From positions 125,302,001 through 125,366,000 of the forward strand of contig NC_042999.1 of assembly GCF_006345805.1 (NCBI RefSeq): a stretch of DNA of 64,000 nucleotides, read 5' to 3'. Position numbers: made by a program. Source of the stretch: Octopus sinensis (lineage: Eukaryota). Positions 47,658-50,600 of the stretch are shown here, in pieces (within the stretch, counting starts at the first letter, position 1; every line of letters begins with the position of its first letter).

Positions 47658-50600
47658 TCACTCACTCACTGACGCACGCACACACTTGCGCGCTTTTGGT
47701 AGCCAATGCAGGTTAAGATTTCTGCATGGCTTCGTCGGAGGGGGAAGGGCAGCAACCATGATTCTTTTTAGTACCTCCATGAAAGGAAGAATGGAAATTA
47801 TCCCCAAACCGGAGTCCTGGCTCAAATGCGGACAACTTTATGAATGAAGCTTTTTTTATTGATTTTTCTTTTTCTTTCTTCTTCACAACAAACGGAATTT
47901 AGAAAAATCCCTTATGGATTTTAATCGAAAATATTAGTTGTTAAAGTGACTACATTCTCTTTTTACAAGAACTAATATTCCATCTTTGTGCTTGATCTTA
48001 ATATCGTGTTAGACCCTATGAATGATACCTAAACCAGGTTTGTCTCTATATTTATGTTCCCGTGGATACATTTTTATAAACGCCTCTCATATTTTTTTCT
48101 TTTACAGTTGACTCTTTGGGATACAGGCGGAATGGAAAGAATGAGCTTCATTGGTTCCAGCTACTATCGAGGAGCAGACGCTGCTCTTTTGTGTTACAGT
48201 TGTGAGAAGCGAGAAACCTTTACCATTCTTTCACAGTATATATTGGACGTTGTAATGAACGCTGAAGGTGCGAAGATCTTTTTGTGTGGTAATATGTGTG
48301 GAGATGAGTCAGAAAGTGCTGTCACTGAAGCCGACGTGGAAAACTTTAAAGAAGAATGCGACGGTGTCTTATCTGGAGTTTACAAGGTCTCCAGCCACGA
48401 TAACAAAAGTATTCTGGACATGTTTGAAGATATAGCCCGCGTTATGCATGATCTGCAAGTTGACCGCATTTCTAGTGGTGGCTTTATGCTCGTACCAGCT
48501 ACCGACGAACTTGCCTATAACAAGAAAAAGAAATGTTTGCTTTTGTAAATTTGAGGAAAAAAGAGAAGAGAATGAAAGAAAGAATGATTAAAGAATGAGA
48601 GAATGGTTACTATAAAGAGGTTTAAAAACTTCTCACAGACTTTGTGTTGAAATGTTTTATCACTCTTTCAGAAAGAGAATTTGATTTTTCAATGAAAAAT
48701 GGACTACCCTCATTATGCAGTCGACTAAACTCTTGCTGCTGTCCTCACACTCCAATTAACCACAATATTACCATTCAACCACATTTCTATTTTACAGGAC
48801 AGCTCTTTTGAAGTCACTGGTATAAAGTCTTTTAGACTTGCATTCTTTCAGAATTCAGTTGGACTGATACTAAGAGTTGTTTTCGAACCATTTCTTTGTC
48901 ATCACATTTTTTTTTCTTCAGATATTTCTATTTGGATTCATCTGTATTTAACCCTTTTCTTTCCAGCCCATTTTATGTTTATTCAGCAGTAAGATATCAT
49001 TTGCCTTAAATGAAATCATTCGCATCATAAACCTTTTCATAATATATACACATTGCCAAAATATTGTCTCGTGATGGAGAAGGAATGAACTATCTGAAAA
49101 ATAAAAAAAAGACATCGTAATTAGCCAAATGCATGACGTCATAAATGACCAAATCAATGACGTCATATAACCACGTAAATCTTTTTTTGTAATGCTGAAC
49201 TCAAAACAATATGCCTTCTGGAATAGTAGTCACTTTGATGTTATTCTTTTCATATTTACTAACATTTATGTCAGAAAATTAAATATTTTCCTAACAGTTT
49301 TCATCTGTATCAATTTTCACTCTTTTCTGCATAATTATCAAAAATAATTTTATACATAAAGATGAGATTAAACTGGATTGTTTAATATCGAAAACCCAAG
49401 CTTTTTTATAACTAATTTATCTCCATCGACATCATTCATAAATCAAGTTCACTGTAATAAAAGATTATTCTTTTGACGTGGTGATATTGAAAAGGGTCAT
49501 TACATTCATTTAATGTGATCACCCATAAATATTAACTATCTAACAAGAATACTGCATACATCTATATTTGCAATGTTCAATATATGCATTGTTAAAATCG
49601 ATAACATCCTGCATTGTCATGTCAATAAAAGACAAAATATTTTTCTTTCAACACATAATTAATATTATCGAGCGTTGATGAAAAGGTTTTATTGAATAAA
49701 AAGCCACGTGCGCTTATATGTACAGTATATGAACCGTTGGACGTTCCCCTTTATCCCTAATTTTTTGTGGCTTAGTCAAAGGAGTAAGGACTACGTTTTT
49801 GGGCCCTTCTCAAGGCCTCCGAGATTTGTAGGATGATGAGGAAAAAGTTATTTTCGAACCAAAAGTCTAGTTTGAATGCTTGCGACAGACGTCCAATGCA
49901 GGTTTTAAGCCGAACGATAGATTAAGTTTACAGCTTAAATTAGTAAATTAACCTCCTTAAAGTAGAATTTGAAAAACTGTTTTGAAAGAAGAGGGGATTA
50001 TTTTTTTTAAGAATCTTACATGAGTTTGGAAAAAAACAGGAATTCGGACTGTTATTTCTTTACGTAGTTCAGCATCAGGACGATTACTTGTGTCTAATAA
50101 AGAGAATGCATCATAGATATAATGATTTTGTTTCATTAAGTTGTGTAGAGGAGGACTCTCTCCAATATATTCGTGACGATTATCATTTAGGTGTAATGGG
50201 CAACATATGCATCAACTGGATTTGTACTCATAACAGTGATGCACCAGAATAGAAAATGTAAAATAGAAAATATAAAATATCTAAGCAATCGTTATCCAGT
50301 TTGTCAGTTTAAAATATTATCACGCTTCTCACTGGCGAAAAAGAAAGAGGCGAATGTAACCCTTACATGTTTACAATTTGTAGTCATTCCTTGCGCCTAT
50401 GATCGGAATATCTATTAAAACCGAAACAAGAGTAAAATATTTAATTACATGTAATAATAGTACTTTGGTTTGTGTCACTATGGAAACATAATGGTTTTGC
50501 ATGGCTCTGTAGGAATATCAAATATCTTGCTGCTAAAATGACAGGAGAAACATTATTTTCGTATACCCCATGACTCAGTGTTTTTCATTGCTAAACTTTA

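What the first reader, a model, noticed from the sequence alone, without database searches (positions are those of the whole stretch)
48288..48410. RabX6-like GTPase with a broken guanine-specificity (G4) motif and divergent G5
Seen: the G4 position reads FLCG-N-M-C-G-D (codons 48291-48305) instead of NKxD, and G5 reads VSSH instead of xSAK, while G1 (GEYGVGKS) and the reading frame are intact. Established: the G4 Lys and Asp stack on and hydrogen-bond the guanine base, and NKxD mutants bind nucleotide weakly, exchange fast or change base specificity. Inference: this may be a fast-cycling or pseudo-GTPase paralog, or the Asp shifted by one position compensates. A-to-I editing cannot restore K or D from these codons.
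Basis: partly seen in the sequence, partly recalled or inferred. Interest (0 to 1): 0.7.

Follow-up and report, generated by a model that had tools for sequence, protein, structure and literature searches.

The report
Octopus RabX6 with remodelled guanine pocket
This is the intact, conserved octopus copy of the little-studied Rab GTPase RabX6, in which nearly every residue that normally recognises the guanine base has been replaced while the phosphate-binding and switch parts are untouched, so it probably binds nucleotide loosely or unselectively rather than being a dead gene.

Summary
Window 48291-48305 encodes N-M-C-G-D where small GTPases have NKxD. G5 reads S-S-H. G1 and the frame are intact.

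The gene has two coding exons (28874-29053 and 48108-48548). It matches an Octopus sinensis database protein at 100% and is the octopus RabX6 ortholog. The best solved structure is GDP-bound Bombyx mori RabX6.

The break is only partly octopus-specific:
- **G4 lysine:** absent in all 57 other mollusc-like relatives and in the 3 octopod-like ones. It is present in 13 of 13 and 115 of 117 arthropod-dominated relatives, and in the brachiopod Lingula.
- **Octopod-like changes:** the G5 Cys-Lys is replaced, and the aromatic residue that stacks on guanine (Ras Phe28 position) is Ile or Leu. The CC tail has become polybasic plus CAAL.
- **O. sinensis change:** the canonical G4 Asp is Gly.
- **Family-wide change:** the catalytic Gln is Met.

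Across three octopod-like sequences, 5 of 6 base-contact residues vary, against 28 of 200 other positions. None of the 14 G1/G2/G3 positions vary.

Best reading (inferred, untested): a functional atypical Rab with weak, fast-exchanging, possibly base-promiscuous nucleotide binding. It is not a pseudogene or a paralog. I rate it a new variant of a known kind, of moderate interest.

The parts
28853..29053 (+). First coding exon in the window. Acceptor AG is at 28851-28852. ATG of the 206-aa form is at 28874. The long isoform X2 reads in frame from 28853 (FQLPPVT). The donor GT follows at 29054.
   Evidence: tblastn of P0003 residues 34-102 to 28853-29059.
28913..28936 (+). G1 / P-loop GEYGVGKS, canonical GxxxxGK[ST].
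   Evidence: Invariant in the family alignments.
28967..28969 (+). I32 (ATC), the position 12 residues after the P-loop Lys, where Ras has Phe28 and Rabs have Phe or Tyr stacking on guanine. Here it is aliphatic.
   Evidence: aligned to Phe of Bombyx RabX6 and Tyr of Rab1A. I/L/L in the 3 octopod-like sequences; aromatic in 27 of 29 other mollusc-like sequences that have a P-loop, 12 of 12 arthropod-like, and 117 of 117 further hits.
28997..28999 (+). G2 / switch I Thr (T42, in STVGLD).
29054..48107 (+). Intron of 19,054 bases between the two coding exons (GT...AG).
   Evidence: P0003 joins the flanking exons.
48108..48548 (+). Last coding exon, residues 61-206 plus stop TAA at 48546-48548.
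   Evidence: 100% identity to P0003. Pfam Ras 60.3 bits.
48120..48134 (+). G3 DTGG followed by Met69 in place of the catalytic Gln (DTGGMER).
   Evidence: Of the 73 hits, DTGGME is seen in 54, one reads DTGGVQ (P0046), and 18 are fragments that lack the region or hold only its MER end. 116 of 117 hits have it.
48291..48305 (+). G4 position: N-M-C-G-D instead of N-K-x-D. Lys is replaced by Met, the canonical Asp by Gly, and an Asp sits one residue later.
48387..48398 (+). G5 position: V-S-S-H. The family has (T/V)-S-C-K, equivalent to SAK.
48522..48545 (+). C-terminal KKKK-CLLL: a polybasic stretch plus a CAAL box. Arthropod RabX6 has a CxC tail and other molluscs have a KK(K/R)CC tail.
   Evidence: Prenyltransferase rule and fly RabX6 tail SCGC from Table 1 of PMC5716267.

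Best explanation
**Shown.**
- This is the Octopus sinensis ortholog of RabX6, a metazoan Rab1-derived Rab that vertebrates lost.
- It is an intact two-exon gene encoding a normal small-GTPase fold.
- The phosphate- and magnesium-binding motifs are canonical: G1 GEYGVGKS, the switch I Thr, and G3 DTGG.
- The residues that hold the guanine base have been replaced in steps:
  1. The catalytic Gln is Met in the whole RabX6 family.
  2. The G4 Lys was lost in molluscs (Met here).
  3. In the octopod-like lineage, the aromatic residue at the Ras Phe28 position became Ile or Leu. The G5 Cys-Lys became Ser-His here. The tail changed from CC to KKKK-CLLL.
  4. In O. sinensis, the canonical G4 Asp is Gly, with an Asp kept one residue later.

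**Inferred.**
- The protein still binds a nucleotide through its phosphates, but holds the base weakly.
- Exchange is therefore fast and independent of an exchange factor, and base selectivity may be relaxed.
- With no catalytic Gln, it would sit mostly in the triphosphate-bound 'on' state.
- It would then be controlled by its abundance and membrane targeting rather than by a classical GDP/GTP cycle.
- The CAAL tail predicts single geranylgeranylation by GGTase-I rather than the REP/RabGGTase route.
For: **Identity and orthology.**
- 100% identity to a protein named for Octopus sinensis.
- Best PDB hit by sequence is 9vlb: E 1.2e-29 for the last exon and 2.1e-12 for the first exon.
- Best PDB hit by fold is also 9vlb, 'GDP-bound Bombyx mori RabX6': 45% identity, TM 0.79-0.83 normalised to the target.
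- In the tree, the mollusc clade has SH-aLRT 99 and the octopod clade 100, nested inside it.

**Intact and constrained.**
- Open frame with GT/AG splice sites.
- The AF2 model has the 6-strand, 5-helix G fold: mean pLDDT 74.3, with the low-confidence part being the N-terminal extension.
- Residues 61-121 are identical in the three octopod-like sequences and almost invariant in molluscs.
- 0 of 14 G1/G2/G3 positions vary among the three.
- The two closest relatives (P0004, P0005) lie on contigs of 1146 and 1062 bases. These can hold the coding sequence only if spliced, so they are transcripts (inference).

**Base pocket released.**
- 5 of 6 N/K/D and S/A/K positions vary among the three octopod-like sequences, against 28 of 200 other positions (Fisher one-sided p = 4e-4).
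- G4 Lys: 0 of 57 other mollusc-like, 13 of 13 arthropod-like, 115 of 117 further hits. Lingula has TKCD.
- Ras Phe28 position: I/L/L against aromatic elsewhere.

**Expected consequence.**
- PMC8916776 (passages read) states that mutations at Ras Lys117, Asp119, Phe28, Ala146 and Lys147 raise intrinsic nucleotide release.
- The same paper states that Lys117 and Asp119 are the most conserved of the sites it analysed in the superfamily.

**Tail.**
- CAAL is assigned to GGTase-I, and fly RabX6 SCGC to GGTase-II, in Table 1 of PMC5716267.
Against: - No binding, exchange or hydrolysis measurement exists for any mollusc RabX6. The functional part is inference from motifs.
- FeoB G domains work with N-(Met/Ala)-x-D and still bind guanine nucleotides (PMC11406355, passages). 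Loss of the Lys alone need not abolish specific GTP binding.
- The Asp at 126 may take over the role of Asp125.
- AF2 gives no ligand and no coordinates here, so pocket geometry was not examined.
- The long octopod stem branch (0.83 substitutions per site against a median end branch of 0.24) shows general acceleration, not only change at the pocket.
- Expression in O. sinensis itself was not shown.
- The D125G change rests on one sequence.
- The taxa of P0004 and P0005 are unnamed, so 'octopod-like' is a judgement from 85-87% identity (175/206 and 180/206).
Confidence: 0.5

Rival explanations
1. Compensated, essentially normal guanine-nucleotide switch. Met123 stacks on the base as in FeoB-type N-M-x-D G domains. 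Asp126 replaces Asp125 in reading N1/N2 of guanine. The backbone amide of G5 still reads O6. Affinity and specificity are close to those of other Rabs.
For: - The N-M-x-D form is kept in 35 of 57 other mollusc-like orthologs, with Asp in 52 of 57. This shows it is a stable, selected state.
- FeoB proteins with Met or Ala at this position bind GDP and GTP (PMC11406355).
- The nearest relatives carry D-D at residues 125-126, so the second Asp predates the loss of the first.
Against: - In the octopod-like sequences, four other base contacts also changed: I32, S/I156, H/Q157 and N122I in one relative.
- These positions differ between sequences that are 85-94% identical. That looks like lost constraint rather than a new fixed solution.
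- Ras mutations at each of these sites raise nucleotide release (PMC8916776).
Confidence: 0.2
2. Nucleotide-free pseudoGTPase (class i). The fold is kept as a protein-interaction module and no nucleotide is bound.
For: - G4 and G5 are both non-canonical.
- The catalytic Gln is absent.
- The base-stacking aromatic residue is lost.
- Class i pseudoGTPases are defined as incompetent for GTP binding and hydrolysis (PMC12490416, passages).
Against: - G1 (GxxxxGKS), the switch I Thr and DTGG are fully conserved: 0 of 14 positions vary among octopod-like sequences, and they are almost invariant across molluscs.
- The described class i case, AAGAB, lacks conserved G-motif residues.
- Keeping a perfect P-loop for this long is hard to explain without phosphate binding.
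Confidence: 0.15
3. True switch of base specificity. The octopod protein prefers ATP or another NTP, as happened in other lineages descended from GTPases.
For: - All guanine-specific contacts are gone or moved, while phosphate contacts stay.
- Precedents:
  - nucleotide-promiscuous FeoB with variable G5 (PMC11406355);
  - SpoIVA, an ATPase derived from TRAFAC GTPases (PMC7952092; only the search listing and the start of the abstract were seen).
Against: - No adenine-specific motif was identified.
- The G4/G5 residues differ among three close relatives. This does not suggest a new, selected specificity.
- No assay exists.
Confidence: 0.1
4. Decaying gene or assembly error. The odd codons are sequencing mistakes or the first steps of pseudogenisation.
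For: - The Asp125-to-Gly change is seen only in this species.
- The database protein may derive from the same assembly.
- Sequencing reads were not available.
Against: - The frame is open and the splice sites are canonical.
- Identity to relatives is 85-87%, with residues 61-121 identical.
- The Lys loss is shared by 60 of 60 mollusc-like sequences, so it cannot be an error.
- The G fold is predicted with confidence.
Confidence: 0.05

Closest known systems
Arthropod RabX6 (Bombyx mori RabX6, PDB 9vlb, GDP-bound; Drosophila RabX6)
   Same: - Same subfamily. Shared signatures are GEYGVGKS, STxGLD, WDTGGMER (catalytic Gln replaced by Met) and AKIFLCGN.
- 45% identity, and the best fold match.
- Fly RabX6 is a neuron- and glia-enriched Rab. 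Null mutants are viable, with stimulus-dependent synaptic defects (PMC3402473 and PMC8016483, passages).
   Different: - Arthropod forms have canonical NKxD (13 of 13, and 115 of 117), S-C-K, Phe at the Ras Phe28 position, and an acidic CxC tail.
- The octopus form has N-M-C-G-D, S-S-H, Ile, and KKKK-CLLL.
RabX6 orthologs of bivalves and gastropods
   Same: - Same clade (SH-aLRT 99).
- 56-65% identity over the last exon.
- G4 Lys already lost: 0 of 57 have it; Met in 35.
- Polybasic tail.
   Different: - They keep the canonical Asp (52 of 57), the G5 Cys (57 of 57), a basic G5 residue (55 of 57), the aromatic residue at position 32 (27 of 29), and a CC tail.
- The octopod-like sequences changed all of these, after a long stem branch (0.83).
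Fast-exchange Ras mutants (Phe28, Lys117, Asp119, Ala146, Lys147)
   Same: The octopus protein carries natural substitutions at the aligned equivalents of all five positions. In H-Ras, mutation at each raises intrinsic nucleotide release (PMC8916776).
   Different: - Those are single laboratory or disease mutations, and they destabilise Ras strongly.
- Here the changes are fixed in a lineage and sit in a protein that is otherwise highly conserved.
- The effect on RabX6 has not been measured.
FeoB N-terminal G domain (G4 = NxxD, with Met or Ala at the Lys position)
   Same: - It is a working G domain without the G4 Lys.
- It has a variable G5 linked to nucleotide promiscuity in some species (PMC11406355).
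   Different: - It is a bacterial membrane-transporter domain, not of the Ras superfamily. The likeness is by analogy only.
- FeoB keeps the G4 Asp at its canonical place.
CAAL-type Rabs such as Rab8 (fly tail CSLL)
   Same: A C-terminal CAAL box, predicted to be a GGTase-I substrate (Table 1 of PMC5716267).
   Different: - Rab8 has canonical G motifs.
- In RabX6 the CAAL tail is a derived state seen only in the three octopod-like sequences.

Membership tests
Ras-superfamily small GTPase | G-domain fold / Pfam Ras (PF00071) above the curated cut-off | tested here: met
   - Last exon 60.3 bits and first exon 23.3 bits, against a cut-off of 21.6.
- Database record P0003 scores 97.1 bits.
- AF2 model shows 6 strands and 5 helices.
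- The top 48 listed PDB fold matches are all small GTPases, nearly all Rabs.
Ras-superfamily small GTPase | G1 GxxxxGK[ST], G2 Thr, G3 DxxG | tested here: met
   GEYGVGKS, T42 in STVGLD, and DTGG.
Ras-superfamily small GTPase | Catalytic Gln after DxxG | tested here: not met
   Met69 (DTGGMER). The same is true across the RabX6 family.
Ras-superfamily small GTPase | G4 [NT]KxD | tested here: not met
   N-M-C-G-D at 48291-48305.
Ras-superfamily small GTPase | G5 SA[KL]-type motif | tested here: not met
   S-S-H at 48390-48398. The family consensus is S-C-K.
Rab family | Rab-type C-terminal double-Cys prenylation motif (CC, CXC) | tested here: not met
   - The tail is KKKKCLLL, with a single Cys in a CAAL box.
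- A minority of accepted Rabs also end in CaaX (PMC5716267), so this does not exclude Rab membership.
Rab family | Rab family motifs RabF1-F5 (motif definitions recalled from memory, not taken from a call) | tested here: inconclusive
   - YYRGA is present exactly.
- VGLDQ, KLTLW, RMSFIG and LCYSCE match the recalled motifs only partly (reading).
- No profile specific to these motifs was run.
RabX6 subfamily (orthology) | Closest similarity to proteins named or solved as RabX6, and shared family signatures | tested here: met
   - 9vlb (Bombyx RabX6) is the best hit by sequence and by fold.
- Hits named RabX6 appear.
- WDTGGMER and AKIFLCGN are shared.
RabX6 subfamily (orthology) | Placement in a tree with RabX6 sequences, apart from other Rabs | tested here: met
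   - In a quick IQ-TREE run, the 36 family rows are separated from two other Rab-like outgroup rows (SH-aLRT 83).
- Mollusc clade 99, octopod clade 100.
- Deep forks are open and the root rests on two long outgroup rows.
Class i pseudoGTPase | Loss of conserved G-motif residues, including the phosphate-binding ones | tested here: not met
   G1, G2 and G3 are canonical and invariant. The definition is from PMC12490416.
Class i pseudoGTPase | No nucleotide binding and no hydrolysis | not testable with these tools
   This needs purified protein and binding assays.
Fast-cycling / GEF-independent atypical GTPase | High intrinsic nucleotide exchange | not testable with these tools
   Only the sequence correlate was tested: substitutions at the equivalents of Ras Phe28, Lys117, Asp119, Ala146 and Lys147.

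The most novel reading that the evidence does not exclude
Octopod RabX6 is the first Rab that has given up guanine recognition while keeping a working phosphate site. It would be a membrane-anchored switch that loads any abundant NTP, including ATP, or cycles without an exchange factor. Its change of lipid anchor from REP/RabGGTase-dependent CC to GGTase-I CAAL would be a consequence of no longer holding GDP stably.
Probability: 0.12. Interest if true: 0.75.

Novelty: new variant of a known kind. Interest (0 to 1): 0.45.

Why it matters
The G4 Lys and Asp are reported as the most conserved of the activating-mutation sites analysed across the Ras superfamily (PMC8916776). Here a Rab subfamily lacks the Lys in every mollusc-like relative seen. 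In the octopod-like sequences it has lost almost every guanine contact. The P-loop, switch regions and much of the remaining G domain stay strongly conserved.

This is a natural experiment on how much base recognition a small GTPase needs. It is directly testable with three recombinant proteins: Bombyx (canonical), oyster (Lys lost) and octopus (all contacts lost).

RabX6 is neuron- and glia-enriched in flies. The function of such a variant in a cephalopod nervous system would also be of interest.

I found no paper on mollusc RabX6. The full-text search for 'RabX6' gave 20 papers, none on molluscs. The search for '9VLB' gave no relevant paper.

Tried and rejected
- **First coding exon of isoform X2.** I looked in the window for residues 1-33 of P0003 with tblastn and with pentapeptide searches. 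It was not found. It lies outside the window or in the N gap.
- **Cluster members.** Whether other Octopus species share G125 and S-S-H therefore stayed unchecked.
- **P0131.** Whether the Lys loss occurs outside molluscs is open.
- **Profile search for other phyla.** The search with A3 was swamped by arthropods. Lingula was the only named non-mollusc, non-arthropod relative seen.
- **Literature.** The search for IFT22 G4/G5 precedents gave nothing usable.
- **RNA genes.** Rfam and tRNA scans of the window found nothing.
- **dN/dS.** Not possible: no orthologous coding DNA was available.
- **Complex prediction.** Not used, because it scores protein partners and not ligands.
- **Pseudogene reading.** Considered and rejected (see rival explanations).
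Full report
**1. The observation**

The window is animal DNA of about 35% G+C.

- **G4 codons.** At 48288-48305 the + strand reads GGT AAT ATG TGT GGA GAT, which is G-N-M-C-G-D. It is preceded by K-I-F-L-C.
- **G5 codons.** At 48387-48398 it reads GTC TCC AGC CAC, which is V-S-S-H.
- **G1.** The P-loop GEYGVGKS lies about 19 kb upstream at 28913-28936, in the same orientation.
- **First coding exon.** It runs from ATG 28874 to 29053, followed by GT.
- **Second coding exon.** It starts at 48108, after a pyrimidine tract and AG, and ends with TAA at 48546-48548.
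- **Protein.** Both exons are in phase 0. They give 60 + 146 = 206 residues.

Each was searched on its own, and the joined step was left out. A database protein named for Octopus sinensis (P0003, 246 aa, 'Rab-1D isoform X2') is 100% identical to the last exon. It carries the junction IDIK|LTLW. Wherever a full-length sequence was needed, I used that record by id.

The first 33 residues of this isoform are not encoded in the window.

**2. What the gene is**

- **Pfam.** Both exons pass the Pfam Ras cut-off.
- **Sequence match.** The best solved relative is 9vlb, for the last exon (E 1.2e-29) and the first exon (E 2.1e-12).
- **Fold match.** An AF2 model of P0003 has mean pLDDT 74.3. Its low-confidence parts are the N-terminal extension, the switch I region and the C-terminal tail. 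It shows the usual 6 strands and 5 helices. Its best fold matches in the PDB are the two chains of 9vlb, titled 'Crystal structure of a GDP-bound Bombyx mori RabX6' (45% identity).
- **Named relatives.** Relatives named RabX6 in wasps, flies, beetles, ticks and crustaceans appear.
- **Tree.** A quick maximum-likelihood tree of 38 rows puts the octopus sequence and two unnamed close relatives in a clade (SH-aLRT 100). That clade sits inside a clade of 19 mollusc rows (99). These are apart from a starred clade (95) that holds all nine named arthropod rows and five unnamed ones.
  - Deep forks are unresolved.
  - Lingula sits on a long branch.
- **Copy number.** No second Octopus-named hit appeared among the 73 hits or the 120 listed. 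I read this as the ortholog, not a paralog.
- **Literature.**
  - PMC3425129 (passages) says RabX6 arose in metazoans as a Rab1 duplicate and was lost in vertebrates.
  - In flies it is enriched in neurons and glia and sits mostly in cell bodies (PMC3402473, passages).
  - Fly null mutants are viable, with stimulus-dependent synaptic defects (PMC8016483, passages).

**3. How the motifs evolved**

I tabulated the 73 hits.

| Group | n | G4 | G5 | Tail |
|---|---|---|---|---|
| Arthropod-like (7 named, all arthropods) | 13 | N-K-x-D in 13 of 13 | S-C-K in 12 of 12 that cover it | CxC |
| Other mollusc-like (26 named, all bivalves or gastropods) | 57 | Lys in 0 of 57 (Met 35, Phe 11, Asp 4, Arg 3, Val 2, Leu 2); canonical Asp in 52 (Glu 3, Ala 1, Gln 1) | Ser 56, Cys 57, Lys 48 / Arg 7 | basic KK(K/R)CC |
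| O. sinensis | 1 | N-M-C-G-D | S-S-H | CLLL |
| P0004 (unnamed) | 1 | N-M-G-D-D | S-I-Q | CLIL |
| P0005 (unnamed) | 1 | I-E-C-D-D | S-I-K | CTIL |

- **Further hits.** One search gave 117 further hits, dominated by arthropods. Of these, 115 have N-K-x-D, one has N-R-x-D, and one could not be scored.
- **Brachiopod.** Lingula anatina has T-K-C-D and S-N-K.
- **Dating the Lys loss.** The Lys was therefore lost in the mollusc line after its split from the lineage of Lingula. No annelid or other lophotrochozoan was seen, so the date is loose.
- **P0131.** An unnamed metagenome relative has T-M-A-D.
- **Catalytic Gln.** It is Met (DTGGMER) throughout the family.

**4.

- **Ras Phe28 position.** This is the residue 12 places after the P-loop Lys, where an aromatic side chain stacks on guanine.
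  - It is Ile in O. sinensis (28967-28969) and Leu in the two relatives.
  - It aligns to Phe of Bombyx RabX6 and Tyr of Rab1A.
  - It is aromatic in 27 of 29 other mollusc-like sequences that have a P-loop, 12 of 12 arthropod-like ones, and 117 of 117 further hits.
- **Tail.** KKKK-CLLL is a CAAL box. By the rule used in PMC5716267 (Table 1), this predicts GGTase-I. Fly RabX6 (SCGC) is assigned to GGTase-II.

**5. Is it under constraint?**

- The three octopod-like sequences share 175-193 of 206 residues, and 33 of 206 columns vary.
- Residues 61-121 (switch II through strand 5) are identical in all three. They are almost invariant in molluscs.
- None of the 14 G1/G2/G3 positions varies.
- Five of the six canonical base-contact residues (N, K, D; S, A, K) vary, against 28 of 200 other positions (Fisher one-sided p = 4e-4).
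- Constraint has therefore been released at the base pocket and kept at the phosphate site and switch surfaces.
- The stem of the octopod clade is long (0.83 substitutions per site against a median end branch of 0.24). There was also general acceleration.
- P0004 and P0005 sit on contigs of 1146 and 1062 bases. With a 19-kb intron in the gene, these must be spliced transcripts. This is evidence of expression in relatives, not in O. sinensis itself.

**6. Mechanism**

- **Established knowledge.** PMC8916776 (passages) makes three relevant points.
  - Mutations at Ras Lys117, Asp119, Phe28, Ala146 and Lys147 raise intrinsic nucleotide release.
  - K117N and D119A destabilise Ras.
  - Lys117 and Asp119 are the most conserved of the sites it analysed in the superfamily.
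- **Observed here.** The octopus protein differs at the aligned equivalents of all five positions.
- **My inference.** It still binds nucleotide by its phosphates but holds the base weakly. It would exchange fast without a GEF and may discriminate bases poorly. Lacking a catalytic Gln, it would be mostly triphosphate-bound.
- **Caution.** FeoB G domains work with N-(Met/Ala)-x-D, and some are promiscuous, with determinants in G4/G5 (PMC11406355, passages). The bivalve and gastropod form (N-M-x-D plus S-C-K) may well be a fairly ordinary guanine binder. The octopod form goes further.
- **Rivals:**
  - compensation by Asp126;
  - a nucleotide-free pseudoGTPase, which is unlikely given the intact G1-G3 (definition in PMC12490416);
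  - a real switch to another base;
  - decay or assembly error, which is unlikely.
- **Link to the tail.** A possible link between unstable GDP binding and the move away from the REP-dependent CC tail is my speculation.

**7. Editing**

From the codon table, His157 (CAC) could be recoded to Arg (CGC). Some molluscs have Arg at this place. Nothing here shows that this happens.

**8. Verdict**

- The feature is real and the gene is functional-looking.
- The wider pattern is the more interesting result: a stepwise, lineage-wide dismantling of guanine recognition in a conserved Rab.
- I found no paper on it. The 'RabX6' search gave 20 papers, none on molluscs. The '9VLB' search gave nothing relevant.
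- I rate it a new variant of a known kind (atypical small GTPase), of moderate interest.

**Unchecked**
- sequencing reads;
- expression in O. sinensis;
- dN/dS (no orthologous DNA available);
- any biochemistry.

Noticed in passing
window 13980-23544: A degenerate (TA)n / (TATG)n microsatellite about 9.6 kb long, with G+C near 11%. It lies upstream of the first coding exon seen here.
   Followed up: partly
window 12565-12664: A run of 100 N, which is an assembly gap or masked stretch. It was left as it is.
   Followed up: no
window 54299-54709 (+): A 136-codon open frame, downstream of the gene, with a weak match to the ISXO2-like transposase domain (PF12762, E 9e-4, 19.7 bits, below the cut-off of 27). 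It is probably a transposon remnant.
   Followed up: partly
upstream of window 28853 (not in the window): The first 33 residues of the database isoform X2 (P0003) are not encoded anywhere in the window. An alternative 5' coding exon therefore lies outside it or in the gap. P0004 has a similar extension, so the long isoform is shared with a relative.
   Followed up: partly
proteins P0040 (Babylonia areolata) and P0048 (Nucella lapillus): A second RabX6-like copy in neogastropods, forming its own clade (SH-aLRT 99). G4 reads N-D-S-A and N-D-A-Q, so both the Lys and the Asp are gone, while S-C-(K/R) is kept. This is an independent further loss.
   Followed up: partly
whole RabX6 family: The catalytic Gln of G3 is Met (DTGGMER) in every full-length family member examined but one (P0046, DTGGVQ), arthropods included. 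Two unnamed relatives (P0082, P0083) have Leu. I found no paper that discusses this.
   Followed up: partly
protein P0131 (unnamed metagenome contig): A RabX6-like fragment with G4 T-M-A-D, G5 S-S-R and tail KKSCCQ. Its nearest named relative is Lingula at 39% identity. This may be a Lys loss outside molluscs.
   Followed up: partly
representatives (e.g. P0076, 665 aa, 4 matched stretches; P0085, 1706 aa, 6 stretches): Many top-scoring representatives are long proteins with several Rab-like stretches. They may be tandem G domains or merged gene models.
   Followed up: no
window 63334-63729 (-): A 131-codon open frame with a long acidic run. It has no Pfam match at E 0.01.
   Followed up: partly
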